IMG/VR virus record: IMGVR_UViG_3300044716_000090
Span: 40,813-104,812 of that record
DNA: 64,000 bases
Direction: 5' to 3' (one strand)
Source: a virus
Taxonomy: Duplodnaviria; Heunggongvirae; Uroviricota; Caudoviricetes; Crassvirales
A model generated the notes under the pieces. It had not been told where the DNA came from. It saw nothing but the letters and a program-made list of their open reading frames with translations, and did not search any database. This document shows, in pieces, positions 19,751 through 59,689 of this stretch. Both the position numbers and the translations under genes were made by a program. Positions within the stretch are counted from its first letter, which is position 1, and each line of letters begins with the position of its first letter.

Positions 19751-20475
19751 TAGTTAGCATTAGTTGTGTTTGGTGCTTGACCATCCACCCCATCTTGCGT
19801 TTGATCTGTCTTCAGTCTGAAGTACGTAGATAATAGCTTTTGAGATGTAAGTTCTAGCACTTGCTTTTCTAAATATCCAGGGCAGCCATATTCTTTATCT
19901 AGAGGATTTTTACAATAGTCTTCTAGATTAATATTATCACTGCAGCAGCACTCAGCAAACATGATCTCATTAGGAACATCTTCTTCAAAGAAAGCAGCAA
20001 TTCTAATAGCTTGTAACAAAGGGTTATTTACGTATAAGTAACCATTTGAAATCCAATAGTATTGTTCGTTCTTGATGATTGGAAGTTTTAAGAGATTGAT
20101 ATATCTATTGATAGTAATCTCTTTCAACTTTTTGCCTTGTCCACTCATTGCGTTTATTGAATAAACACCTTGAATGATATATTGGTAATTACCCTCGCAT
20201 ATACGAGGAAGTTTAAATTTTGTTCTAGCAACTGTGCAAGGATCCACATAATCACAACATTCAGAAATAGGAACTTCTACCAATTCCAAACAAGGAATGG
20301 TAGTAAACAAAGTATCAGTAGCCCAAAGCTTTCTGAGATTTGTTTCACGTTTTACTAATAAAAGTGTGTTGTTCTTAATCTCAGATGCCACCACTCTATC
20401 AGTGATGAGGTTATCTGTTGATAACAATTTGTGCATTGCACGCACATCTGAAACTAATTTCCTTAAAGTTGCCAT
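19750..20475 (-). CDS. Hypothetical protein (241 aa)
   Basis: ORF in track. Shares start/stop junctions with both neighbours. Confidence 0.55.
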   Translation of the reverse strand: MATLRKLVSDVRAMHKLLSTDNLITDRVVASEIKNNTLLLVKRETNLRKLWATDTLFTTIPCLELVEVPISECCDYVDPCTVARTKFKLPRICEGNYQYIIQGVYSINAMSGQGKKLKEITINRYINLLKLPIIKNEQYYWISNGYLYVNNPLLQAIRIAAFFEEDVPNEIMFAECCCSDNINLEDYCKNPLDKEYGCPGYLEKQVLELTSQKLLSTYFRLKTDQTQDGVDGQAPNTTNAN

Positions 20476-21725
20476 TATAAATACTGTTTGAATATATTTG
20501 TCATTCCCTCAGCTTGATCGATTAAGAATGCTGTCACCTCACCTTTAGACATCGTGTGACCCATCTTATCATCCCAAAGGCTCTTAGCATTTGAGAAAGC
20601 TGGAATTTGGTAAAATTTAATACCGTTAAAGTCATGACTCACTTCGTGATGTTTATCTCCTGTGAATATATAGAAGTTATGGTGGAATGACCATTGGTCT
20701 CTATATTCTATTGGGAATAGTGCTGCAAGTTTAGCTGGCTTAATCGCATCCCCATGATTGAACATTAATGCTGAATTGCCGTAACTTACATACTTTCTAT
20801 ATTTAGGAGAATCATCAATTGTAAGTCTGTCTGTATTTCTAAAATATGTTTGTAACCAATTAACCATATGCCATCCTACAAACTCATCATGATTACCAGC
20901 TACATACACCACATTAACATGTTTAGCATGCTGTAATAACATTGTAATCATTAACACCTCATGGTTACATATATACTCAAATGAAGTGTGGTATGTATGT
21001 GTATTCTGTTGAGGGGTTCCTTTTGTAGTTGCATTAGTGTATTCACTATTAAACTCATCAGAGCCAATAATGTATGTAATCTCTTCTAGGTTGTTTGAAA
21101 GTTGAGCCTGTGTAGCTATCACATCCACCTTATACATAATCTTAGCCATTCTACTTGTTACATCATTATCACCATCTACATCCCATTTGTTTAAATGAGA
21201 GTCTTGTTTGTTGATAATTAACATACCGTTTGGTCTCTCTGGAAAGAACTTAGGACTCATAACTTCCTGACTAACAGGCTGATATGAAGCTAAAAAGTCT
21301 ACGAAGCTATCTTGAAATACTTGCTCTGTAGACTTCTTTCCTAACCATGCTTTAACTTGCCAATGGGGATTAGTTCCATTCCCCCAGAAGTTCTGTACAT
21401 ATTTAGTTATTTCCCACTTATCTGTGTCTATGTGACACTTCTCAATTAGTTCATCTAAGCTTTTAACTTCTTCGCTAAAGTTAGCTACTACCTCTCCTGT
21501 ACCCTTGCTTATATCCTCTGTAAACTTGATGATTACATTCTCTAGTTCAGCAATGTAGTTTCCAACCTCAGCATCTTCCTCACTCTTCTCTTGATTTCTT
21601 AACTCATTTAATAACTCATCCACCTCTAGTTCTGTAATTCCAAGCTTATCAGCATAGAACTTTTTACTCTTTTTCCAATGTAGGATCTCTTCTAGCTGTT
21701 GCAGCAAGGATTGATTTTCAGGCAT
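20475..21725 (-). CDS. Calcineurin-like metallophosphoesterase (416 aa)
   Basis: Contains VVYVAGNHDEF, the GNH[DE] signature of the metallophosphatase fold. An upstream His/Asp-rich stretch is consistent with metal-binding motifs. First gene after an intrinsic terminator and an AT-rich gap. Confidence 0.65.
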   Translation of the reverse strand: MPENQSLLQQLEEILHWKKSKKFYADKLGITELEVDELLNELRNQEKSEEDAEVGNYIAELENVIIKFTEDISKGTGEVVANFSEEVKSLDELIEKCHIDTDKWEITKYVQNFWGNGTNPHWQVKAWLGKKSTEQVFQDSFVDFLASYQPVSQEVMSPKFFPERPNGMLIINKQDSHLNKWDVDGDNDVTSRMAKIMYKVDVIATQAQLSNNLEEITYIIGSDEFNSEYTNATTKGTPQQNTHTYHTSFEYICNHEVLMITMLLQHAKHVNVVYVAGNHDEFVGWHMVNWLQTYFRNTDRLTIDDSPKYRKYVSYGNSALMFNHGDAIKPAKLAALFPIEYRDQWSFHHNFYIFTGDKHHEVSHDFNGIKFYQIPAFSNAKSLWDDKMGHTMSKGEVTAFLIDQAEGMTNIFKQYL

Positions 21726-44653: not shown

Positions 44654-46606
44654 ATGAAGATACTCATCTATGACATAGAAACCATGCAGGAGCTGTTTCT
44701 AATAGGTATATACAATCCTGATACACAGCAGTGGTATGAATTTCAGGTGAGTAGAAACATTAACCAATTAGATGCATTCCAAAGGTTTACAGAGGAACAT
44801 GCTGATTACTATTGGGTTGGGTATAACAATCTACGCTTCGATAGTCAGGTGGTTGAGTGGGTGTTACGTAATCATAATGATTGGTATGATCTAAGTGCAT
44901 TAGAAGTGTGTGCTAAAATAGCACAGAAAGCTGCTGATGTGATACATGATGCTAATTATGATGTATTTCCTGAGTATAGGGAAGAATGGCTCACCCTCAA
45001 ACAAATAGACCTATTCAGAGTGAATCACTATGACAATAAGAATCGTAGGGTTAGCTTGAAGAGGTTAGAGTTTGAGATGGATCTTCCAAACATTGAAGAG
45101 ATGCCTATTCATCATACTAAAACTGATATGACAGATGAGGAGATACAGCTCACTATTGACTATTGTCGTAATGATATATATGCCACATATGAATTCTATT
45201 TAGTAACCATTGGTCAAACAGACCATCCTTTGTACAAGGGTAATAACCAAATAGAGCTCAGACAGGATATATACAACGAGTTTGGTATTCCTTGCTTAAA
45301 CTATTCTGACAGTAAGATAGGTGATGAGATGATTAAGAAGTATTACTGTCAAGAGAAGGGTATGTCTTACAGTGATTTACCAAAGAAGGGATATTTCAGA
45401 AAGCAAGTGAGAGCCAAAGATTGCATTGCTCACTATGTGGATTTCCAGACACCAGAGCTAAAAGACTTCCTGAAGCATGTAAAGAAGCAGATATTCACAC
45501 TCACTGATGAATTTAAAGAGTCATTAGAGTTTTATGGCAACACTTACACATTTGCAAAAGGTGGGCTACACACAGAAAACAAGCCCAAGATATTTGAGGC
45601 TGATGAAGATAACATCATAGTTGACTGGGATGTTAGTTCATACTATCCAGCTATCATCATTAACAATGGTAAATATCCACAGCATTTGGGTAAAGAGTTT
45701 CTTAGAGGATACAAACAGATGTTTGATAAACGATTGGAACTCAAACCATTAGCTAAAAAGGATAAGAAGATTAAAGGTATTGTTGGTGCATTGAAGCTTG
45801 CAGTTAACTCTGTGTATGGTAAGAGTTCTGATATGCAGTCGTGGATCTATGATAGACAACTAACTATGTTTACCACTATTACGGGTGAGCTGAGCTTACT
45901 TATGCTTATTGAGGCATATGAATTAGCTGGCATACGTGTAATATCTGCTAATACAGATGGAGTGACAATACTTGTAAAAAATACAAGTTTTGATACTATG
46001 ACTGCTATTAATAAGTGGTGGATGGATGTTACACAATATGAGCTAGAACGCACTGATTATCAAAAGATTATATTCTCAACAGTAAATGACTATTTAGCAA
46101 TTAAAACCGATGGAGAAATTAAGAAGAAGGGTGACTTCCTCACTGATTTTGAGTTACACAAGAATAAGTCAGCTAGGATTGTACCTATTGCTCTCGAGCA
46201 TTATTTTGTTAATGGTGTCCCTGTGGCTGATACCATTCATAATTGTACAAACATATATGACTTTTGTCTCAGGCAGAAAGCAAGCAAGGACTTCCATTAT
46301 GAAGGAGTAAGCAATGGTAAGAAAACAGTGTACAATAAGCTAATCAGGTATTATGTGTCTAATAAGGGTGAGAAGCTGTTAAAGGTTAAGAACCCTGAAT
46401 GTCAATCTAATGCTGCAGATGTATCTCAAGTGGAAGCAGGTGATTGGGTGATGCATGTATGTAATCATCTACCACCAGACCATCCTCTGGATAACATCAA
46501 TTATGCTTATTACATAGAACGTGCTGAACGTATTATCAGCAAAATACAGTTAGAAGGTAAAAAGAGAAAGATAACAATCAATCCTAATCAATTAAGTTTA
46601 TTCTAA
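44654..46606 (+). CDS. Family-B DNA polymerase with 3'-5' exonuclease (650 aa)
   Basis: Exo I is YDIET. Exo II is YNNLRFDSQV. Exo III is YCRNDIYATYEFY. Motif A is DVSSYYPAII. Motif B is KLAVNSVYGKSS. Motif C region is ISANTDGVTILV. Confidence 0.85.
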   Translation: MKILIYDIETMQELFLIGIYNPDTQQWYEFQVSRNINQLDAFQRFTEEHADYYWVGYNNLRFDSQVVEWVLRNHNDWYDLSALEVCAKIAQKAADVIHDANYDVFPEYREEWLTLKQIDLFRVNHYDNKNRRVSLKRLEFEMDLPNIEEMPIHHTKTDMTDEEIQLTIDYCRNDIYATYEFYLVTIGQTDHPLYKGNNQIELRQDIYNEFGIPCLNYSDSKIGDEMIKKYYCQEKGMSYSDLPKKGYFRKQVRAKDCIAHYVDFQTPELKDFLKHVKKQIFTLTDEFKESLEFYGNTYTFAKGGLHTENKPKIFEADEDNIIVDWDVSSYYPAIIINNGKYPQHLGKEFLRGYKQMFDKRLELKPLAKKDKKIKGIVGALKLAVNSVYGKSSDMQSWIYDRQLTMFTTITGELSLLMLIEAYELAGIRVISANTDGVTILVKNTSFDTMTAINKWWMDVTQYELERTDYQKIIFSTVNDYLAIKTDGEIKKKGDFLTDFELHKNKSARIVPIALEHYFVNGVPVADTIHNCTNIYDFCLRQKASKDFHYEGVSNGKKTVYNKLIRYYVSNKGEKLLKVKNPECQSNAADVSQVEAGDWVMHVCNHLPPDHPLDNINYAYYIERAERIISKIQLEGKKRKITINPNQLSLF

Positions 46607-51830: not shown

Positions 51831-52703
51831 ATGTCAGGAATCGGTGGAAACAAAAGACAGCAATCAGGTGGAGAATCTACATTCTCAAAGAAGGTAGGAT
51901 TATTTGAAGCTAATGTGATTGCAATTAACCCAACAATTGAAGAGTTCAAAGACAAATTAGGTATTGAACTTAAAGAAGACAGCAAGGCGGTTGATTACTT
52001 AGGAATGAGTCAAGATGGTAACAAAACACTACGTGTAGACATCTGGCTTGAAGAAGTTAAGAGTAAGGATAAGTTTAAGGCTGTATTCTTCCTTGAGAAC
52101 AAAGAAAGAGAAAACAAAGATGGCAGCAAGAAGCAATATATCAACTCTGTTGGTAGTTGTTCTTGGGCTGATGATGAAAACAATCTTCCTAAATGGTTTA
52201 CAGAGCGTGAAGTTCGTGTAGCTAATGTAGGTGAAGAAGATCTTTATAATTTCATGCGTACATGGTTAGGTAATTTAGATTATCGTGATGCTGAAACCAC
52301 TCTACAATTAGACTGGAGCAAGCTTATGAAAGGTAATGTTAAAGACCTAAGAGACCAAATCAACGGTGAATGGTGTACAAATGTCGTTGCTTTAGCTACA
52401 GTGAAGACTGTTGAGAAAGATGGTGATATTAAGGAGTATCAAGGTGTATATAATAAGGGATTCCTACCTGCTTATACATTGAAGCAATTTAGATTGGTAG
52501 ATTTCAGTAGCTCTACAATCCTTAAGGGATTACGTGAGAAGAAGTCTAAAGATCTAAAACCTCATGAGCGTTTTGTATTAAACGTTACAGGTGAGTATGG
52601 ATGTAAAGAGTTCTATACATTCAAAGACTTAGCAGAGTATAACGCAGATGATAATCTTGTAGCCTCGGATAGAGTGCTAGAAGAAGATGATAGCGACTTT
52701 TAA
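51831..52703 (+). CDS. Hypothetical protein (290 aa); possible ssDNA-binding protein
   Basis: ORF in track. Acidic C-terminal tail (LEEDDSDF), as in phage SSBs. Assigned by position only. Confidence 0.4.
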   Translation: MSGIGGNKRQQSGGESTFSKKVGLFEANVIAINPTIEEFKDKLGIELKEDSKAVDYLGMSQDGNKTLRVDIWLEEVKSKDKFKAVFFLENKERENKDGSKKQYINSVGSCSWADDENNLPKWFTEREVRVANVGEEDLYNFMRTWLGNLDYRDAETTLQLDWSKLMKGNVKDLRDQINGEWCTNVVALATVKTVEKDGDIKEYQGVYNKGFLPAYTLKQFRLVDFSSSTILKGLREKKSKDLKPHERFVLNVTGEYGCKEFYTFKDLAEYNADDNLVASDRVLEEDDSDF

Positions 52704-52704
52704 T

Positions 52705-52760
52705 TTTGTCCCCTCCCCCTATAAAAAGCCCCTCATCTGTAAAAAGGTGGGGGGTTTTAA
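52705..52760 (+). terminator. GC-rich structured element followed by a T-run; terminator candidate
   Basis: GTCCCCTCCCCCTATAAAAAGCCCCTCATCTGTAAAAAGGTGGGGGGTTTT. C-runs and a G-run can pair. Lies between the 51831 gene and the primase. Confidence 0.4.
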
Positions 52761-52770
52761 CTTTATATAT

Positions 52771-53769
52771 ATGATAAACGGAAAAAGAAAAACAAAGCTT
52801 ACACCAGAGTCCGTACTAGACAAGATAACTGATTATGATATATTTAGATTCTATATGCCTGATAAGAGTTGGAAGCTTAACCAAGTGACCTATTCTCCAT
52901 TTAGGAATGAGAACAATCCTTCCTTTGTAATAGGGAATAAAAGGGGCTTTATATCATTTATTGACTTTGCTGATACCAGTAAGAGAGGTGATTGTTTTGA
53001 GTTTGTTAAGCTCCTTCACAATCTATCTAGTATGAATGATGTGTTAAAGATTATAGACAGAGATTTTGGATTAGGTATAGTTACCAAGGGTACAGAAGAA
53101 TACAAGAAAATAACAGCTGAATACAAACAACCAGATGCTGTTAAGAGGTATTCTCTCATCCAGGTGGTAACAAAGAAGTTTACACAAGAGGAGTTAGCCT
53201 ATTGGAATCAATATCATATAGATATAGAGGATCTAAAGAGTAACAACGTCTATTCTATCAAAAAGGTGTATTTGAACAAGAGTTTGTTCTACACTAGTGG
53301 TCAGGAAATGAGGTTTGGTTATTTCTATGATGGACATTGGAAGATTTATACACCGTTTGGAGATAAGAAAAACAAATGGTTACCTAATAATGTTCCTATC
53401 ACCGCTATGGATGGTAAAGAGGACATAGTTAATTGCAAGGTGGCATTCATCAATAAGAGTAAGAAGGACTATATGGTTATGAAGAAGATATTTCCATGTA
53501 GCTGTGCTGTACAGAATGAAGGTGTTGGATGTTTCTCTCCAGAGAACCTAGAATATCTTAAAGCTAATTCTGACAGACAAATCCTCAGCTTTGATAGCGA
53601 TGTTACAGGTGTAACTAACTCACAACAGATTACCAAGCTATTTGATTTTGATTATGCTAATGTTCCCCGTAAGTATCTAACAGAGGGTATAAAGGACTGG
53701 GCTGATTTAGCAAAAGCTCATGGTATGGGAGCAATAGAATCTTATTTAAAACAAAAACACATTTTATAA
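52771..53769 (+). CDS. DnaG-like primase with a degenerate (Cys-less) zinc-binding-domain homologue and TOPRIM-like DxD (about 332 aa)
   Basis: YSPFRNENNPSFVIGNKRGFISFIDFADTSKRGDCFEFVKLL aligns with the DnaG zinc-ribbon [36 protein letters not shown], with the metal ligands replaced. Downstream LSFDSDVTG is a DxD TOPRIM motif. The track ORF starts at 52687, but the first 84 nt overlie the terminator-like element, so Met at 52771 is preferred. Confidence 0.55.
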   Translation: MINGKRKTKLTPESVLDKITDYDIFRFYMPDKSWKLNQVTYSPFRNENNPSFVIGNKRGFISFIDFADTSKRGDCFEFVKLLHNLSSMNDVLKIIDRDFGLGIVTKGTEEYKKITAEYKQPDAVKRYSLIQVVTKKFTQEELAYWNQYHIDIEDLKSNNVYSIKKVYLNKSLFYTSGQEMRFGYFYDGHWKIYTPFGDKKNKWLPNNVPITAMDGKEDIVNCKVAFINKSKKDYMVMKKIFPCSCAVQNEGVGCFSPENLEYLKANSDRQILSFDSDVTGVTNSQQITKLFDFDYANVPRKYLTEGIKDWADLAKAHGMGAIESYLKQKHIL

Positions 53770-54539
53770 TGACTACTGAAAACTACAACACAACAAAAGA
53801 ATTGATTCTTGCAACAGATATTCCTGCACAGACAAGAACTTACAAACCAGTTAGCCACGGTCAATTGATTGATCTTACAATGGAAGGCATTCAAAAAGCT
53901 GGATTTGTATTAGACAAAGAAACATACACAGCTAGTACAAATGGTCAGATTGCTAATGGTAGATTTACTATCAAGAACGTAATGGATAGTGAGATGCAAT
54001 TAGAGATTGGCTGGCAGAATAGCTACAACAAGCAACTTACATTAAAGTTTGCCCTAGGTACACGCATTATGATTTGTCAGAATGGTTGTGTATCAGGTGA
54101 TTATGGTGCATTTAAGAAGAAACACGTAGGTGAAATACAATCATTTACACCAAATGCTATTAGTGAATACATCAAGGCTGCAGGAGAAAGCTTTAGAACT
54201 ATTCAGTTCCAGAGAGATCAAATGAAGCAAGTGGAAGTTACTAAGCGTACCAAAGCTGAATTGATTGGTAGAATGATGATTGAAGAGCAGTTTATTACAT
54301 CTACACAATTAAACATCATTACCAGAGAATTAACTAGCCCTACACATGATTATGGTGCACCTGATAGCTTATGGGAGTTGTACAACTATACAACATTTGC
54401 TATGAAGGAAACACATCCTGCAAACTGGATGAGTAGTCACATTAAAGCACATTCATTCTTTGTAGATGCTTCAGGACTTCATACAGCAGTTGATGAGATG
54501 CCTATGATTATGCAATTAGAACAATTAGAATTATTTTAA
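53769..54539 (+). CDS. Hypothetical protein (256 aa)
   Basis: ORF in track, ATGA overlap with the primase gene. Confidence 0.5.
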   Translation: MTTENYNTTKELILATDIPAQTRTYKPVSHGQLIDLTMEGIQKAGFVLDKETYTASTNGQIANGRFTIKNVMDSEMQLEIGWQNSYNKQLTLKFALGTRIMICQNGCVSGDYGAFKKKHVGEIQSFTPNAISEYIKAAGESFRTIQFQRDQMKQVEVTKRTKAELIGRMMIEEQFITSTQLNIITRELTSPTHDYGAPDSLWELYNYTTFAMKETHPANWMSSHIKAHSFFVDASGLHTAVDEMPMIMQLEQLELF

Positions 54540-54540
54540 T

Positions 54541-55257
54541 ATGAATTGGGATAAATTTAAAGATCAGTTTCATCCATCATGGCATAGGTTAATACAACCT
54601 TTCATTGAAAGTGAAGCTTGTGATAACATCTATAAATTTATAAAATCAGAGAGTCAGAGGGGCAAGAAAATTGCTCCTCTTTCTCCTAATGTTTATAGAT
54701 GCTTTTTAGAGACCTCACTAGATGACCTAAAGATGGTTATGGTGGGTATGTGTCCCTACCACACATTAAAGAATGGTAGTCCTATAGCAGATGGTTTGTT
54801 AATGAGCTGTTCTACAACAGGTATATTGCAGCCATCTCTAACAAAGTTCTATGATGGAATAGAAAAAGAGTTGTATCAAGGATTAAACCTCACTATACTA
54901 AAGAATCCAGATGTTACCTATTTGGCTAAACAAGGAGTGCTTATGTATAATGCAGCTTTAACCACTGAAATCAACAAAGCAGGTTCACATATTGATATCT
55001 GGGAACCTTTTACTAAGTATCTATTTGAAGAAGTGCTATCCTATACAGGAGTGCCTATTCTGTTCTTAGGAAAAGATGCTTCCAAGTATGAGAGATATGT
55101 ACCACCGTTTAGTTGGTCATTCACTGTAAGTCATCCAGCCAGTGCTTCTTACAAGCAAACTGATTGGGATACAGAAGGTGTATTTACCAAGCTAAACAAG
55201 ATACTAAAAGAAAACAATAATACAGAAATCGATTGGCTAGAAAAAGTGCCATTCTAA
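54541..55257 (+). CDS. Uracil-DNA glycosylase family-1 homologue with a non-canonical catalytic motif (238 aa)
   Basis: MVGMCPYHTLKNGSPIADGLLMSCS aligns with UNG GQDPYHGPNQAHGLAFSV, with Asp to Cys at the water-activating position. VSHPASASYKQ aligns with the HPSPLSA motif. Confidence 0.65.
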   Translation: MNWDKFKDQFHPSWHRLIQPFIESEACDNIYKFIKSESQRGKKIAPLSPNVYRCFLETSLDDLKMVMVGMCPYHTLKNGSPIADGLLMSCSTTGILQPSLTKFYDGIEKELYQGLNLTILKNPDVTYLAKQGVLMYNAALTTEINKAGSHIDIWEPFTKYLFEEVLSYTGVPILFLGKDASKYERYVPPFSWSFTVSHPASASYKQTDWDTEGVFTKLNKILKENNNTEIDWLEKVPF

Positions 55258-55270
55258 AAACACAAACACT

Positions 55271-55636
55271 ATGTACAACGTTAGATTTGGAGAAAGAATT
55301 GAAAAGGGAGACCTCATTGCTGTTGCTAATGGTAATGATTTCTCATTGGGTATTTATTATGGAAGAGGAATAGGAGGAACTGTTCAGTATTACATGCCTT
55401 CTGGTGTTAAACATGCTATGCAGTATTTTAACGATACTATGGCACAATTAGCTGCTCAAGGAAAACCTACAGAACCTCTTAAGTTAAATAGATTTTGGAA
55501 GTGTTACATTAACACACCAAGAGACACACGAATAATGAAATTAAACAGAGAAAACATTACAAGTCCAAAAGACATAGAAGAAGTTATGATAGCAAAAGAA
55601 GCACTAAAAAACTTTAACATCGACGTAAAATACTAA
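55271..55636 (+). CDS. Hypothetical (121 aa)
   Basis: ORF in track. Confidence 0.5.
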   Translation: MYNVRFGERIEKGDLIAVANGNDFSLGIYYGRGIGGTVQYYMPSGVKHAMQYFNDTMAQLAAQGKPTEPLKLNRFWKCYINTPRDTRIMKLNRENITSPKDIEEVMIAKEALKNFNIDVKY

Positions 55637-55638
55637 TC

Positions 55639-57954
55639 ATGATACTAGAAAAACAGACAGAAGCAACTATCCTACAAGAAGGAGAATCACAAGAATCAAT
55701 TGGAATGTCATTAGACCTGGACTCAGCTCAGGTGTTAATGCAAATGTTAAGTAAGAACTTATATTCAGATGCAATAGGTTCCACCATTCGTGAGTGTGCC
55801 TCTAATGCATTAGACAGTCACAGAAGAGCAGGCATTGATAAACCAATTATCGTTAGCCTCAATAGGAATAACCATGATAACTATGAATTCTCTGTAGAGG
55901 ATTTTGGTATTGGTTTAGATGCAGATGATGTAGTTAATATCATCAGCAAATATGGTAAAAGTACAAAGCGTAATAGCAACACAGAATTAGGCATGATGGG
56001 TCTTGGTTTTAAGGCCCCACTAGCATACACATCTACCTTCTATTTTACTGCAAGGAAAAATGGAATGGAAAGAAAATACATGATGTATGAGGGAGAAGAA
56101 GTGAATTCAATTGATTTACTTCATGAGACTCCCACAGATCAGCCAAACGGTGTTAAGGTGACTATACCAGTTAACTATTACGACAGACATGATTTTGTAC
56201 GTAAGACTAAAGAGCAACTAGCTTATTTTGAGAACGTGTATTTCAATGTACTAGATGGTGAGGTGGGCAATGATTTCACTATCCATAGATCTGAACACTA
56301 TCAAGCTTCTAGCTTATCCAGAGATAGTTGGTTACACATTTGTTTAGATAACGTGTATTATCCATTGGATTTCACTAGATTAGGTATAGATAGAATAAGC
56401 GTTCCTGTAGGTTTAAGATTTAGTCTTACAGATGGTCTATTCCCTACACCAAACAGAGAATCCATCAGATATACCAAGGAAGCAAAGGATATCATCCTAG
56501 CTAAGATTGGTAAAATGGTTGATCATTTTATTACCAAATACAATGAAACTGTTGCTGATTCAGATGATTTCATGGCTGTACTAAGATACCATGCTACAAA
56601 CAGAAGATATGTTGATGTTCCTGGTAAGAATACTAACTTTGATTTAAGTGATTTAGTTAAACATGGTAGTGTTCTAATCGCTTCTCCTAAGGTGAGCAGC
56701 TTAAAGAAGCTTGACTTACAAAAACTTGTCAGAAACAAGGAATACATCCTTGGTGAGTATGATAAGAAGTTTGAGCTTTACAATGGTAGAATGTCTCAAT
56801 TAAAAACCTATTGGAGATCTGGTGTTGATGTTATAAACAGAAACGATGAACCACACTATTTCTATTCTGAGAAGATTAGTGGTGCTATGAAGGATTATAT
56901 TAAGAGTATAGCTCCAAAGAGCAGACATGCATATTTCATTAGAAAGGTGAAGACATTTAAACTGGGTGGTCTTACAAAAATGAATGATTATGACACTTAC
57001 ATGAAGCTTCTTGACTTACCAAATTATCCAAGAACTGAGTGGAGAGAGCTTATTACAGAGTTTCAAGCTGTGTTAGCTTCTCTTACAAAGACATTCATCA
57101 ACCTTGATGAGATGGTAATACCACAAGCTTTCCTAGATTCTAGGAAGAAGCAAAAGGGAATCACTGTTAATGTTGGTGGAACAAAGGTGAGACGTATTAA
57201 GTTGGAAGGTGAAGTGATTGGTAGGTATGCTGTGGACTTAGAGAGGTATGTAGATGGTAAGAATTCTAAACTGGTTAGCAAGATTTATAGTCTTGCTGAA
57301 ATGCATAAGTATAACAAGCTTGTTATCTATGGTTCCCAGGCAGATATCTCTACTATGGATAAACTATATGGAGCTATTAATAAGAATAAGGTAGAACTAG
57401 CTGTATTCTCTGAGAGAGAACTTAAGACGCTATCTACTATTGACGTACACAATCTAATCCCTTTAAGCAAGTTTATGGAAGGTAAAAACAAACCATTCAA
57501 GAGAATTGTAACAGCCTATCTAATCCAAAAGTTACACAACAGCTTCAGCAGGTCATTCATTAGAAGAGAGAAAATTGGTCTCATCTCTACAGATTTATGT
57601 GAAAAAATGAGAAGACTAAGTGATTACAAGATTGAGCATCACTGTGGTGGTAATGACACAATCTATAATTCTATGCTAGAGGTAGCACAAACACATAACT
57701 TATTTGATATGGAGATATATCATGAGTATGTGGAAGTGAAGAACCTTTTAGAAAGATTACCATTCATTGAAGCTATGGCAGATAAACTCCAGAGCTACGA
57801 TAATGATAACTCTCCAATAATCAGTGCATTCCGTGATTTATTCAAGTATCATGGACATAGAATTGACTGGAAACACTACAATATTCGTATTAATGAAGAG
57901 GTAGTGGAAGAGTTAACAGAGAATTCTGTTGAAGAGTTAGTAGAGAATATTTAA
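55639..57954 (+). CDS. GHKL-superfamily (Hsp90/MutL/MORC-type) ATPase with a 600-aa C-terminal region of unknown function (771 aa)
   Basis: N-box is IRECASNALDSH (ExxxNxxD). G1 is VEDFGIGLD (DxGxG). G2 is ELGMMGLGFKAP (GxxGxG), resembling Hsp90 IGQFGVGFYS. Motif spacing fits the Bergerat fold. No TOPRIM EGDSA motif seen. Confidence 0.7.
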   Translation: MILEKQTEATILQEGESQESIGMSLDLDSAQVLMQMLSKNLYSDAIGSTIRECASNALDSHRRAGIDKPIIVSLNRNNHDNYEFSVEDFGIGLDADDVVNIISKYGKSTKRNSNTELGMMGLGFKAPLAYTSTFYFTARKNGMERKYMMYEGEEVNSIDLLHETPTDQPNGVKVTIPVNYYDRHDFVRKTKEQLAYFENVYFNVLDGEVGNDFTIHRSEHYQASSLSRDSWLHICLDNVYYPLDFTRLGIDRISVPVGLRFSLTDGLFPTPNRESIRYTKEAKDIILAKIGKMVDHFITKYNETVADSDDFMAVLRYHATNRRYVDVPGKNTNFDLSDLVKHGSVLIASPKVSSLKKLDLQKLVRNKEYILGEYDKKFELYNGRMSQLKTYWRSGVDVINRNDEPHYFYSEKISGAMKDYIKSIAPKSRHAYFIRKVKTFKLGGLTKMNDYDTYMKLLDLPNYPRTEWRELITEFQAVLASLTKTFINLDEMVIPQAFLDSRKKQKGITVNVGGTKVRRIKLEGEVIGRYAVDLERYVDGKNSKLVSKIYSLAEMHKYNKLVIYGSQADISTMDKLYGAINKNKVELAVFSERELKTLSTIDVHNLIPLSKFMEGKNKPFKRIVTAYLIQKLHNSFSRSFIRREKIGLISTDLCEKMRRLSDYKIEHHCGGNDTIYNSMLEVAQTHNLFDMEIYHEYVEVKNLLERLPFIEAMADKLQSYDNDNSPIISAFRDLFKYHGHRIDWKHYNIRINEEVVEELTENSVEELVENI

Positions 57955-58114: not shown

Positions 58115-59689
58115 ATGGGACTATTCAGTTTAAGCTGGTTCAAAAGCCAGAAACAAAAGCAATTAGATGAATTACAACATGAGATTGAAGTTAAAAAATT
58201 AGAGAAGACACTAGAAAGACTAGATGAAAAAGAGAAACCTTCTACTTACACAATAGGGATTAGTAATCCATGGGTACCTACTACAACAAGTGTTGTTAAA
58301 CCTTATTCTAACATTAAGATTGTGAATGATGTGCTTACTGTGGTGCTTAATGATGGTTCTATCATTACTAAGTCTAAAGCTACACCAGAAGACTTCAATA
58401 ATGCCAGAGAATGTAAGACAGAAGCTTGTTTGTTGACCCTTGTAGGTTCTCCAGATATACTAAAAGAGAAGCAAGAAGCACAGGCTAAATATGAGAAAGC
58501 TAAGGCTATTCAGAAAGGTGCTGAGTATCTAGCTAAGTTTGATGATTTTGAGATGAAAGACGGTAGTCTTTATATCAAGGGAATCAATAGAAGCATTCCA
58601 CCTTTGATGGTAGATGAGTTCTTACGCATCATTGGTAATCACAGTTACAACTCTATGGAAAATGTAACAGATAGAGAAATTGATGAGGTGAATGAACTTA
58701 TACAAGAAGACGAAGAGTATCAATCTCTTAAGCGTTTCTTTATGTGGTGTTGCTTAAATCCTAGAGCTGAGGTGGCTGACAAGCTATACAACTTCCTAAA
58801 GAAGAATAGCTTCCGTATCACCAAGCAAGGATTCTTTGTAGCATTACGTAACGTTGTAACATTACATGGATCTACAGAGCTAGTACAGTTTATCAGCAAT
58901 GCTTACAACAAGACTAAAGCTGTATGGAAGAAGAACCCAGCTGATTATTTTGTATTCTTACAAGATGATGGTCAATACAAAATGGTTCACAGAGATGCTT
59001 TGTATAGGTCAGAAATGGTTGAGTGTTCTTATTGTGATGGTTATAAGTTTGTTCCAGATGAAGATAATGAGGAAGAAAACATAGAATGTCCAGAATGCGA
59101 TGGAACTGGTGAATATGAAGAAATGACATCTGTTGACTATGGTGAAAGAATTGGTAACTTAACAGACCTCTATCTTGATTTGCCTAATAGAGTAGAGAAT
59201 AGATTTACAGATGCTCACACAAAGACGTTTGACATCAGAATTGGTAGACCAGTGAACATGCCTATGGAGCAATGTAGATGGAATACTGATGATTGTGGTG
59301 CTGAAGGTCTTCACTTCACATCTGATGAGATTCATTATGTAGGTTGTGGTGATACATCTGTACTTGTACTTATCAATCCAATGAAGGTTGTAGGTATCGG
59401 TGAGTCTAAGGGTAGATGTTATGAGTATTTACCAATCATGACTGTTCCTCGTGAAGAAGCAACAGAAATCTTACATGATCTAGACTTTGATACAATGGAG
59501 CTTGATGAGAGCTATGCAATTCGCGAATTGGAAAATCTAGGTACAAAAGCTAGAGAAGGCTTTATTGCAGAAGCTAAGAAGTATGAGTTCAATCTCCCTG
59601 CTTTATCTGCTGTAGAAGTACTTAAAATCGTTAAGAACCTTGACGAAATAAGACAAGAAATCTCTAAGAGAATCGTAAATATTGACTAA
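58115..59689 (+). CDS. Protein with DnaJ-type CxxCxGxG zinc-finger repeats (524 aa)
   Basis: CSYCDGYKF ... CPECDGTGE are two CxxCxGxG units of the DnaJ cysteine-rich domain type. Remainder unknown. Confidence 0.6.
   Translation: MGLFSLSWFKSQKQKQLDELQHEIEVKKLEKTLERLDEKEKPSTYTIGISNPWVPTTTSVVKPYSNIKIVNDVLTVVLNDGSIITKSKATPEDFNNARECKTEACLLTLVGSPDILKEKQEAQAKYEKAKAIQKGAEYLAKFDDFEMKDGSLYIKGINRSIPPLMVDEFLRIIGNHSYNSMENVTDREIDEVNELIQEDEEYQSLKRFFMWCCLNPRAEVADKLYNFLKKNSFRITKQGFFVALRNVVTLHGSTELVQFISNAYNKTKAVWKKNPADYFVFLQDDGQYKMVHRDALYRSEMVECSYCDGYKFVPDEDNEEENIECPECDGTGEYEEMTSVDYGERIGNLTDLYLDLPNRVENRFTDAHTKTFDIRIGRPVNMPMEQCRWNTDDCGAEGLHFTSDEIHYVGCGDTSVLVLINPMKVVGIGESKGRCYEYLPIMTVPREEATEILHDLDFDTMELDESYAIRELENLGTKAREGFIAEAKKYEFNLPALSAVEVLKIVKNLDEIRQEISKRIVNID

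What the first reader, a model, noticed from the sequence alone, without database searches (positions are those of the whole stretch)
54541..55257. UDG homologue with Asp to Cys substitution in the catalytic GQDPYH motif (here GMCPYH)
The second UNG motif (HPASAS against HPSPLS) and the overall alignment identify a family-1 fold. The general-base Asp that activates the nucleophilic water is replaced by Cys. This could mean a different chemistry, altered substrate range, or a catalytically impaired uracil-binding protein.
Basis: partly seen in the sequence, partly recalled or inferred. Interest (0 to 1): 0.5.

Follow-up and report, generated by a model that had tools for sequence, protein, structure and literature searches.

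The report
Phage UDG homologue with Cys-for-Asp
A replication gene of a crAss-like phage encodes a look-alike of the repair enzyme uracil-DNA glycosylase in which the key catalytic aspartate is a conserved cysteine; this is one of many natural variants at that position in phage relatives, so the protein probably still grips uracil in DNA but removes it slowly, differently or not at all.

Summary
ORF 54541-55257 (+, 238 aa) is a clear family-1-type UDG homologue (PDB hits to UNGs E 1.7e-17; model TM about 0.75 to human and E. coli UNG). It has GMCPYH where UNG has GQDPYH, and HPASAS where UNG has HPSPLS. The Cys is not an error. It is present in 118 of 121 close homologues and in all 59 readable IMG/VR loci, with both Cys codons used, and the gene has dN/dS about 0.1. 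No other Asp or Glu has moved into the site.

The gene sits in the replication module of a crAss-like phage. Orthologues in the same slot of sister phages carry Asp (CQDPYF). Across the wider phage UDG-like family the Asp position is labile: D 56, S 21, C 19, E 17 and other 23 of 136 cluster representatives. Cys/Ser forms keep the uracil pocket (Tyr, Asn) and the catalytic His almost as well as Asp forms. The Leu wedge is absent family-wide.

The best reading is a replisome-linked uracil-recognising protein whose chemistry no longer uses a carboxylate, that is, a slow SMUG1/MUG-like glycosylase. The main rival is a non-catalytic binder. It is a new variant of a known kind, of moderate interest, and biochemistry is needed.

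The parts
54541..55257 (+). UDG-like gene (238 aa), family-1 (UNG) fold
   Evidence: ORF. PDB phmmer E 1.7e-17. NCBIfam Ung models E 1.4e-34 but 119.9 bits against a cut-off of 162. Foldseek TM 0.74-0.78 to UNGs. dN/dS about 0.1.
54745..54762 (+). Motif 1, the 'water-activating loop': GMCPYH (aa 69-74). Cys71 (TGT, 54751-54753) stands in place of the catalytic Asp. Met70 replaces Gln. Tyr73 and His74 are kept.
   Evidence: Sequence and HMMER alignments to UNG. Conserved in 118/121 homologues. Codons TGT 58 / TGC 5.
54787..54810 (+). Second-sphere strand ADGLLMSC (aa 83-90; UNG has AHGLxFSV). Asp84 and Cys90 are invariant. Met88 stands in place of the uracil-stacking Phe.
   Evidence: Alignments. 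UNG residues 153-159 contact the catalytic strand 144-148 (PMC2699497).
54823..54837 (+). ILQPS (aa 95-99), counterpart of the Pro-rich/Ser phosphate-pinch loop (xxPPS). Gln97, Pro98 and Ser99 are conserved.
54940..54951 (+). Uracil-specificity motif LMYN (aa 134-137; UNG has LLLN). Asn137 is invariant.
55132..55149 (+). Motif 2, HPASAS (aa 198-203; UNG has HPSPLS). The catalytic His198 is kept and the intercalating Leu is replaced by Ala202.
52687..53769 (+). DNA primase, upstream in the same gene array
   Evidence: PHROG 12622, E 5e-32. Syntenic in relatives.
53769..54539 (+). DUF932 protein immediately upstream. Present in the close clade only, not in all relatives.
   Evidence: Pfam PF06067, E 4.6e-7. 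Synteny.
55271..55636 (+). 121-aa protein of unknown function immediately downstream; it varies among relatives
   Evidence: No family hit. Not found in relatives at 56-64% identity.
55639..57954 (+). RIIA-like GHKL ATPase, a conserved downstream neighbour
   Evidence: PHROG 612, E 8.9e-57. Pfam HATPase_c_3. Synteny.
58115..59689 (+). RIIB-like protein, a conserved neighbour
   Evidence: PHROG 609, E 1e-16. Synteny.
44654..46606 (+). Divergent DNA polymerase of the same replication module, and the presumed partner of the UDG-like protein
   Evidence: PHROG 1252, E 1.7e-147. No Pfam or PDB sequence hit.

Best explanation
The gene encodes the uracil-recognising UDG subunit of the replication module of a crAss-like phage. 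It is the orthologue of Asp-bearing phage UDGs, but its catalytic loop has been remodelled from Q-D-P-Y-P/F to M-C-P-Y-H-T.

Shown:
- It has the family-1 fold.
- The uracil pocket is kept (Tyr73, Asn137, and the backbone contacts of residues 70, 71 and 88).
- The leaving-group His198 is kept.
- The carboxylate is lost and no acid has been relocated.
- The Leu wedge is lost.
- The gene is under strong purifying selection and sits in a conserved position between primase and the RIIA/RIIB-like genes.

Inferred:
- The protein still flips and binds uracil, most likely on single-stranded or unwound template DNA at the fork, where no wedge is needed.
- It cleaves the glycosidic bond by the dissociative route driven by His198 and substrate strain.
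- The attacking water is merely positioned by the Cys71 thiol and His74, as Asn does in SMUG1 and MUG.
- It would therefore be a slow, attenuated glycosylase rather than a fast UNG.
For: - Fold and homology.
- Conservation of Cys71 together with Met70, Tyr73, His74, Asp84, Met88, Cys90, Asn137, His150, His198.
- Synonymous codon use at Cys71. Gene-wide dN/dS median 0.097.
- Orthology with Asp forms: the same gene order (p290, primase, UDG, RIIA, RIIB, HNH, exonuclease) with 43-65% identical neighbours in loci whose UDG reads CQDPYF.
- Among 136 cluster representatives, Cys/Ser forms keep P72+Y73+N137+H198 in 34/40, against 53/56 for Asp forms and only 9/23 for clearly degenerate forms. Cys/Ser lineages therefore do not decay like dead enzymes.
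- The differences between Cys/Ser and Asp forms are confined to a coordinated motif change at positions 70, 71, 74 and 75.
- Precedent for active UDGs without a carboxylate at this position: hSMUG1 has Asn85 in place of Asp145 (PMC6344882).
- In vaccinia D4 the uracil contacts of the Gln, Asp and Phe equivalents come from main-chain atoms (PMC3855713, Table 2). Side-chain changes at those positions need not abolish binding.
- A close relative encodes a dUTPase, so the phage invests in keeping uracil out of its DNA.
- Phage and viral UDGs ride on the replisome and scan the single-stranded template (bioRxiv 10.1101/2025.03.26.645540).
Against: - There are no biochemical data for any member.
- In canonical UNG even Asp145Glu causes a dramatic loss of activity (PMC8730318), so residual activity may be negligible.
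- Three further catalytic or recognition side chains are changed (Gln to Met, Phe to Met, Leu to Ala).
- A sublineage carries Ala at position 71 with everything else intact. This fits a dispensable side chain but equally fits a non-catalytic role.
- 58% of the nearest family representatives lack Asp, as expected if catalysis is not what is selected.
- The active-site loop region of the model has only moderate confidence (pLDDT about 58 for residues 71-90).
Confidence: 0.42

Rival explanations
1. The protein is a non-catalytic replisome accessory. It has lost glycosylase chemistry and is kept as a DNA or uracil-binding module (processivity factor, template-strand guide or uracil sensor) attached to the phage DNA polymerase. 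The poxvirus D4/E4 scaffold function and the inactivated UDG domain of N4-like polymerases work this way.
For: - Asp and the Leu wedge are both absent.
- The Asp position is labile family-wide.
- The Cys-to-Ala sublineage is otherwise intact.
- The gene sits in a conserved replication-module slot next to primase.
- Precedents: N4-like PolA carries a UDG domain with unconserved catalytic residues, proposed to act as a processivity module (PMC10201439). Vaccinia D4 is a processivity factor (PMC10253040, listed). MHV68 UNG binds replication factors independently of its catalytic residues (bioRxiv 10.1101/2023.05.19.541466, listed).
Against: - His198, Asn137 and Tyr73 are invariant in 121 close homologues and are kept in 85% of Cys/Ser representatives. 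Clearly degenerate members lose them.
- A pure scaffold would not need the leaving-group His.
- The loop change is coordinated ([LM]-[CS]-P-Y-H-[TS]) rather than random.
Confidence: 0.33
2. The protein carries out new covalent chemistry. Cys71, activated by His74 (possibly backed by Asp84 on the adjacent second-sphere strand), attacks C1' after uracil leaves and forms a thioglycosyl enzyme-DNA intermediate. The outcome would be a self-crosslinking AP-site shield (like UdgX or HMCES) or a base-exchanging DNA transglycosylase.
For: - Cys and Ser, the classic nucleophile pair, interchange at this position.
- Cys co-occurs with His at +3 in 16/19 representatives, against 3/56 for Asp forms.
- UNG residues 153-159 contact the catalytic strand 144-148 (PMC2699497), so a Cys-His-Asp arrangement is geometrically conceivable.
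- UdgX shows that a UDG-superfamily enzyme can crosslink to C1' (PMC10776899).
Against: - A sublineage has Ala at position 71 with the rest intact.
- The Cys/Ser-His association is not significant after phylogenetic control (5 against 2 contrasts, p 0.45).
- Asp84 is equally conserved in Asp forms.
- No base-biosynthesis or modification genes were seen next to the gene or in the 64-kb window.
- No coordinates were available to check the geometry.
Confidence: 0.08
3. The protein has an altered substrate. The remodelled pocket (Met70, Met88, Cys71) would recognise a base other than uracil, for example a modified pyrimidine or an adducted base produced by a host defence, making this a counter-defence repair enzyme.
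For: - Three of the six pocket-lining residues differ from UNG (the pocket definition is from PMC3855713).
- One Ser-type relative is fused to a NADAR domain. From my own knowledge, not checked here, that family removes ADP-ribose from bases.
Against: - The two residues that set specificity, Tyr73 (excludes 5-substituted pyrimidines) and Asn137 (reads the uracil edge), are invariant.
- The changed residues contact uracil through their backbone.
- The NADAR fusion is a single cluster with no relatives in IMG/VR.
- A close relative encodes a dUTPase, which fits ordinary uracil avoidance.
Confidence: 0.07
4. The feature is an artefact or a decaying pseudogene. The Cys would be a sequencing or assembly error, or the gene would be drifting.
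For: None found.
Against: - The exact protein is present in NCBI and JGI on contigs up to 111 kb, in a 135-member 90% cluster.
- Hundreds of independent metagenomic homologues carry Cys.
- dN/dS is about 0.1.
- The reading frame is intact in all loci.
Confidence: 0.01

Closest known systems
[quoted passage not shown]
   Same: - Same fold (TM 0.74-0.78).
- Collinear alignment over the whole length at 23-28% identity.
- Retained residues: Tyr (thymine exclusion), Asn of LLLN, His of HPSPLS, Pro-Ser phosphate-pinch loop, and the His of GQDPYH.
   Different: - Catalytic Asp to Cys, Gln to Met, stacking Phe to Met, intercalating Leu to Ala.
- A 4-residue insertion after PYH.
- AHG becomes ADG.
- Scores fall below the curated cut-offs of all NCBIfam Ung equivalog models.
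UDGs of cultured and reference crAss-like phages (Steigviridae: cr111_1, DAC15/17, cr106_1, cr108_1; annotated from phiCrAss001)
   Same: A standalone family-1-like UDG in the replication region of a crAss-like podophage. HPAxxxY-type motif 2 without Leu.
   Different: They carry GQDPYP with Asp. They are only 27-30% identical to the window protein. Their neighbours differ (ThiF/E1-like, metalloprotease).
Asp-type orthologues in sister uncultured phages (IMG/VR loci L157-L162, motif CQDPYF)
   Same: Same slot between primase and RIIA/RIIB-like genes. 43-51% identical. Same insertion after PY[HF]. Same HPASAAY motif.
   Different: They have Asp at the catalytic position, Phe instead of His at +3, and an A[ST]G...MDC second-sphere strand instead of ADG...MSC.
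Poxvirus D4/E4 UDG (family-1-like, DNA polymerase processivity factor)
   Same: A divergent viral family-1 UDG with altered motifs (GIDPYP, IPWN, HPAARDR) and no Leu wedge, working inside the replisome (PMC3855713).
   Different: D4 keeps the catalytic Asp and Phe and is an active glycosylase. Its partner A20 has no counterpart identified here. Sequence similarity to the window protein is marginal (E about 0.002-0.02).
Inactivated UDG domain of N4-like family A DNA polymerases
   Same: A phage replisome UDG module that has lost canonical catalytic residues, proposed to act as a processivity or DNA-guiding module (PMC10201439).
   Different: That domain is family 4, is fused to the polymerase, and has lost several elements including a hairpin. 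The window protein is standalone, is family 1, and keeps His, Asn and Tyr.
SMUG1 (family 3) and MUG/TDG (family 2)
   Same: These are active UDG-superfamily glycosylases with an uncharged polar residue (Asn) where UNG has Asp. SMUG1 motif 1 is G-M-N-P-G (from my own knowledge), which resembles G-M-C-P-Y. The mechanism is thought to be SN1-like, with the water merely positioned (PMC6344882).
   Different: No detectable sequence membership: the PDB search returned only family-1 chains. These families have different motif 2 and specificity elements.
UdgX (family-4-like crosslinking UDG)
   Same: A UDG-superfamily protein in which a nucleophilic side chain captures C1' after uracil excision (PMC10776899). 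It is the model for the covalent rival.
   Different: In UdgX the nucleophile is a His on an extra loop of motif 3, and the enzyme belongs to family 4. There is no evidence here for crosslinking.

Membership tests
Family 1 UDG (UNG) | Alpha/beta UDG fold whose closest solved structures are UNGs | tested here: met
   AF2 model pLDDT 80.9. The top 50 Foldseek PDB hits are all UNG-type, with TM 0.71-0.78 and E down to 2e-12.
Family 1 UDG (UNG) | Sequence match to curated Ung equivalog models above their cut-off | tested here: not met
   NF003592 scores 119.9 bits against a cut-off of 162. TIGR00628 scores 91.2 against 185.75. Pfam UDG scores 20.8 against 24.3. Homologous, but not an equivalog.
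Family 1 UDG (UNG) | Water-activating loop GQDPYH with the catalytic Asp | tested here: not met
   GMCPYH, with Cys71 at the Asp position in the HMMER and MAFFT alignments. No relocated acid.
Family 1 UDG (UNG) | Tyr of the loop that excludes thymine and 5-substituted pyrimidines | tested here: met
   Tyr73 is invariant in 121/121 homologues.
Family 1 UDG (UNG) | Phe that stacks on uracil | tested here: not met
   Met88 (120/121). Phe is present in about half of the more distant Cys/Ser relatives.
Family 1 UDG (UNG) | Uracil-specificity motif LLLN with Asn | tested here: met
   LMYN, with Asn137 invariant.
Family 1 UDG (UNG) | Motif 2 HPSPLS: catalytic His | tested here: met
   His198-Pro199 are invariant.
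Family 1 UDG (UNG) | Motif 2 HPSPLS: minor-groove intercalating Leu | tested here: not met
   HPASAS, with Ala202 aligned to the Leu. The Leu is absent throughout the phage family.
Family 1 UDG (UNG) | Pro-rich / Ser phosphate-pinch loop (xxPPS) | tested here: inconclusive
   ILQPS, with Pro98-Ser99 conserved but only one Pro.
Family 1 UDG (UNG) | Uracil excision from ss and ds DNA; inhibition by Ugi | not testable with these tools
   Needs purified protein.
Poxvirus D4-type processivity UDG | Physical complex with the viral DNA polymerase through a bridging subunit | not testable with these tools
   Only co-location with replication genes is shown.
N4-like inactive UDG domain | Family-4 UDG domain fused to the N-terminus of PolA | tested here: not met
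   The window protein is a standalone 238-aa ORF. The polymerase gene lies 8 kb upstream. The affinity is to family 1, not family 4.
SMUG1 / MUG (families 3 and 2) | Sequence membership (motif 1 GMNPG / GINPG with Asn; family-specific motif 2) | tested here: not met
   No SMUG, MUG or TDG chain among the 57 PDB hits at E<=1. The resemblance is limited to G-M-x-P and an uncharged residue at the Asp position.
crAss-like phage (Crassvirales-related) genome context | crAss-type tail ring proteins, portal, TerL and MCP, and divergent structural and replication modules | tested here: met
   Pfam CrAss_Ring_1, Ring_2 and Ring_3_4. PHROG portal, TerL, MCP and large virion protein. TerL is only 27-40% identical to any INPHARED phage.

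The most novel reading that the evidence does not exclude
Cys71 and His74 (perhaps with Asp84 from the adjacent strand) would form a nucleophilic dyad or triad inside a UNG fold. After uracil departs, the enzyme would become covalently linked to C1' through a thioglycosidic bond. The protein would then be either a replisome-borne AP-site shield (functionally like UdgX or HMCES) or the first family-1-fold DNA transglycosylase able to exchange a base in phage DNA. The Ser-type relatives would use the same chemistry.
Probability: 0.08. Interest if true: 0.85.

Novelty: new variant of a known kind. Interest (0 to 1): 0.45.

Why it matters
Family-1 UDGs are the textbook case of an invariant catalytic Asp. 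Here a large, abundant group of uncultured crAss-like phages, with more than a thousand database homologues, keeps a UNG fold under strong purifying selection with Cys at that position. Its wider phage family toggles between Asp, Cys, Ser and Glu while preserving the uracil pocket and the catalytic His.

This is a natural mutagenesis series that bears on three points:
- How much of UNG catalysis needs the carboxylate, which is the SN1 versus general-base debate.
- What viral replisomes use UDG modules for: repair, uracil sensing or processivity.
- How such genes should be annotated. Databases currently call all of them 'uracil-DNA glycosylase'.

If the Cys proved to be a nucleophile, it would add a new DNA-protein or base-exchange chemistry to the superfamily.

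Tried and rejected
1. Close phage genomes. Megablast of 10 kb around the gene against INPHARED found nothing. The nearest cultured relatives by TerL are only 27-40% identical.

2. A relocated catalytic acid. A column-by-column comparison of Cys/Ser against Asp forms found none. Asp84 is conserved in both classes, so it is not compensatory.

3. A Cys-specific second Cys or metal site. Cys90 is family-wide, and Cys27 and Cys54 are clade-specific but not tied to Cys71. Rejected.

4. A Cys/Ser-His74 coupling as evidence for a dyad. The raw association is strong (Fisher 2e-10), but only 5 against 2 informative phylogenetically independent contrasts support it (p 0.45). Kept only as a lead.

5. A conserved partner gene. 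DUF932 upstream and the 121-aa gene downstream are not conserved beyond the close clade. The long 'fusions' are GIY-YIG homing endonuclease, DegV or NADAR, not DUF932.

6. DNA-modification genes that could explain a new substrate. None were found in the 64-kb window. Downstream in a close relative there are RecA, dUTPase, two GT2 glycosyltransferases and a hexapeptide transferase. No thymidylate-synthase-like or base-modifying enzyme was seen, but about 40 kb of the genome was not examined.

7. Diverse loci fetched with a family profile. This failed because no stretch was conserved enough. P0125 and P0137 have no relatives in IMG/VR.

8. The paper on the unconventional Nitratifractor family-1 UNG (PMC5716868) is not held.

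9. Promoter and terminator scans around the gene showed no enrichment. There are no tRNAs in the window.
Full report
**Observation**

The window holds an ORF at 54541-55257 (+) of 238 aa. It starts 2 nt after the stop of the preceding gene. Reading the DNA confirms GMCPYH at aa 69-74 (nt 54745-54762), with Cys71 encoded by TGT at 54751-54753, and HPASAS at aa 198-203 (nt 55132-55149).

A phmmer search of all PDB sequences returns 57 chains at E<=1. All are family-1-type UDGs: cellular UNGs, and herpesvirus, mimivirus and poxvirus enzymes. The best hit has E 1.7e-17 and E. coli UNG has E 4.7e-15. The printed alignments put GMCPYH on GQDPYH and HPASAS on HPSPLS. NCBIfam Ung equivalog models match at E 1.4e-34 but well under their curated cut-offs (119.9 against 162 bits). 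Pfam's superfamily model also falls just below its cut-off. PHROGs files the protein in an unannotated family (phrog_12143, E 1e-31). An AlphaFold2 model built on 30 homologues (pLDDT 80.9, pTM 0.82) superposes on human, E. coli and other UNGs with TM 0.71-0.78.

**What the active site looks like**

The family-1 motifs and the six pocket residues are listed in PMC3855713. Against that list the protein compares as follows.

| UNG feature | State in the window protein |
|---|---|
| Tyr of the loop | kept (Tyr73) |
| Asn of LLLN | kept (LMYN, Asn137) |
| His of motif 2 | kept (His198) |
| Pro-Ser pinch | kept (Pro98-Ser99) |
| His of GQDPYH | kept (His74) |
| Gln | changed to Met70 |
| Catalytic Asp | changed to Cys71 |
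| Stacking Phe | changed to Met88 |
| Intercalating Leu | changed to Ala202 |

There is also a 4-residue insertion after PYH. In the vaccinia D4-uracil complex the contacts made by the Gln, Asp and Phe equivalents are main-chain contacts (Table 2 of PMC3855713). These side-chain changes therefore need not abolish uracil binding (inference).

**Is the Cys real and selected?**

The large protein database holds 1299 homologues at E<=1e-5. Among the best 120 (70-95% identity), 117 read GMCPYH and 3 read GMAPYH. In 67 IMG/VR loci (56-97% identity, contigs of 101-118 kb), 58 read GMCPYH and 1 reads GICPYH; the rest are truncated. The exact protein is on record in NCBI and JGI on a 111-kb contig, in a 135-member cluster, and is named 'uracil-DNA glycosylase'.

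In 63 coding sequences the Cys71 codon is TGT 58 times and TGC 5 times. Pairwise Nei-Gojobori dN/dS for the gene has a median of 0.097 over 737 unsaturated pairs. Within the clade Met70, Pro72, Tyr73, His74, Asp84, Met88, Cys90, Asn137, His150, His198 and Tyr204 are invariant or nearly so. The three Ala variants form one sublineage. They are 90-96% identical to each other and 83% identical to the nearest Cys form, and they keep every other conserved residue.

**Genomic setting**

The window is part of a crAss-like podophage.
- The minus-strand block carries TerL, portal, MCP, a 1775-aa virion protein and crAss tail ring proteins 1, 2 and 3/4.
- The plus-strand replication block carries DNA polymerase, DnaB-like helicase, SNF2 helicase, Sak4-like ATPase, primase, DUF932, the UDG-like gene, a 121-aa ORF, RIIA- and RIIB-like proteins, HNH, a PD-(D/E)XK-type exonuclease and ribonucleotide reductase.

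No near-identical phage is in INPHARED. TerL is 40% identical to Leptolyngbya phage Lbo-JY46 and about 32% identical to Cellulophaga phages phi17:2 and phi4:1. A 97%-identical relative encodes RecA and a dUTPase a few kb downstream. Promoter and terminator scans show nothing special around the gene, which fits its position inside a tightly packed array.

**Evolutionary context, the main new result**

An exhaustive phmmer search of 1.84 billion 50%-identity cluster representatives gave 5786 hits at E<=1e-3. The 150 best hits (29-64% identity) form a phage-type family with its own signatures: ADGLAFSC instead of AHGLxFSV, and HPA[SA]A[AS][YR] without the Leu.

| Residue at the Asp position | Full-length representatives (of 136) |
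|---|---|
| Asp | 56 |
| Ser | 21 |
| Cys | 19 |
| Glu | 17 |
| Gly | 6 |
| Ala | 5 |
| Asn | 4 |
| Lys, Pro, Thr or Val | 8 |

The rest of the site (Pro72+Tyr73+Asn137+His198) is intact in 53/56 Asp forms, 34/40 Cys/Ser forms, 13/17 Glu forms and only 9/23 of the others. Cys/Ser lineages therefore do not decay the way clearly dead members do.

The positions that best separate Cys/Ser forms from Asp forms are all in the loop itself: 70 (Gln to Leu/Met), 71, 74 (Pro to His) and 75 (to Thr/Ser). No acidic residue is gained elsewhere near the site.

Cys co-occurs with His74 in 16/19 representatives, against 3/56 for Asp (Fisher 2e-10). On a rough NJ tree only 5 against 2 phylogenetically independent contrasts support the coupling (p 0.45), so I treat it as a lead only.

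IMG/VR loci related to representative P0127 (43-51% identical to the window protein) carry CQDPYF with Asp. They sit in the same slot, with the order p290, primase, UDG, RIIA-like, RIIB-like, HNH, exonuclease and neighbours 43-65% identical to those of the window. The Cys and Asp proteins are thus orthologues doing the same job in the same replication module. The Steigviridae crAss-like phages have GQDPYP.

**Mechanism**

Shown:
- The protein has a UNG fold, with the uracil-reading residues and the catalytic His conserved.
- The carboxylate and the Leu wedge are absent.
- The gene is under purifying selection and has a replication-module context.

Established knowledge:
- UNG catalysis is largely dissociative. 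His stabilises the uracil anion and Asp (possibly assisted by His148) handles the water. Even Asp145Glu is severely impaired (PMC8730318; PMC6344882).
- SMUG1 works with Asn at that position.
- Viral and phage UDG modules ride on the polymerase and scan the single-stranded template (bioRxiv 10.1101/2025.03.26.645540).
- N4-like polymerases keep a UDG domain with unconserved catalytic residues, proposed as a processivity module (PMC10201439).

Inference: the protein most likely still captures uracil, probably on ssDNA at the fork where no wedge is needed, and hydrolyses it slowly with water positioned by Cys71/His74 (confidence 0.42). The chief rival is a purely non-catalytic binder or processivity module (0.33). 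This rival is favoured by the family-wide lability and by the Cys-to-Ala sublineage. It is disfavoured by the strict retention of His198, Asn137 and Tyr73. A covalent Cys-His chemistry (0.08) is attractive because Cys and Ser interchange and because UNG's second-sphere strand 153-159 (here ADGLLMS) contacts the catalytic strand (PMC2699497). The Ala sublineage and the lack of any modification genes argue against it. An altered substrate (0.07) is disfavoured by the conserved specificity residues. An artefact is excluded.

**Comparison and novelty**

The protein works like, and descends from, family-1 UDGs. It fails several defining features of that family: the Asp, Phe and Leu, and the equivalog score cut-offs. 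I found no paper describing a natural Asp-to-Cys/Ser family-1 UDG or discussing the crAss-like UDG active site. Crass-phage papers simply list 'UDG' among nucleotide-metabolism genes (PMC7886860). I rate it a new variant of a known kind with moderate interest (0.45). [quoted passage not shown] Even so, a large, selected Cys/Ser series inside the UNG fold is a ready-made test of the role of the carboxylate and of what phage replisomes use UDGs for.

Noticed in passing
window 54787-54810 (aa 83-90) and family alignment: In the phage UDG-like family an acidic residue swaps between two second-sphere positions. Asp84 pairs with Ser/Gly89 in 106 representatives, and Asn/Thr/Ser84 pairs with Asp89 in 22. 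Cellular UNGs have His at position 84. The role of this acid is unknown.
   Followed up: partly
protein P0137, not in the window: A Ser-type relative (GLSPYH) is fused to an N-terminal NADAR domain (Pfam E 1.3e-14). This could hint at base-adduct repair or counter-defence. No relatives were found in IMG/VR, so it may be rare or a gene-calling artefact. P0138 is a GIY-YIG plus Cys-type UDG run-on, and P0228 is a DegV plus half-UDG chimera.
   Followed up: partly
window 44654-46606 (+): The 650-aa DNA polymerase matches PHROG 1252 strongly (E 1.7e-147). It has no Pfam hit at E<=0.01 and no PDB sequence hit at E<=0.01. It is a very divergent replicase whose family (A or B) was not determined.
   Followed up: partly
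window 55639-57954 and 58115-59689 (+): A RIIA-like GHKL ATPase and a RIIB-like protein sit inside the replication module directly after the UDG-like gene. They are syntenic across all relatives examined. Their role in a crAss-like replisome is unexplained.
   Followed up: no
L002 (Cellulophaga phage phi14:2) 345-6690; L001/L007 (Steigviridae): The phi14:2 'UDG' reads GKEPYR and lacks the HP motif (EDPIQ). It lies next to gamma-glutamyl cyclotransferase, ATP-grasp, GFAT-like amidotransferase and amidoligase genes. Steigviridae UDGs (GQDPYP) lie next to ThiF/E1-like and metalloprotease genes.
   Followed up: no
L082 12231-21871 (97%-identical relative, downstream of the RNR gene that starts at about window 62879): The region encodes RecA, dUTPase, two GT2 glycosyltransferases, a hexapeptide-repeat transferase, DUF6321 and DUF5856. 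The glycosyl and acyl transferases could modify host surface sugars or possibly DNA. This was not examined.
   Followed up: no
L157-L162 (Asp-type sister loci): The Asp-type orthologues have Cys instead of the otherwise near-invariant Gly at the first motif position (C-Q-D-P-Y-F). One of them (L160) has QPDSAIY instead of HPASAAY.
   Followed up: no
window 20475-21725 (-): An SbcD/Mre11-type 'DNA repair exonuclease' (PHROG 704, E 1.8e-45) lies inside the otherwise structural minus-strand block. A Band_7/SPFH-domain protein is also encoded somewhere among the window ORFs scanned (Pfam E 4.9e-27).
   Followed up: no
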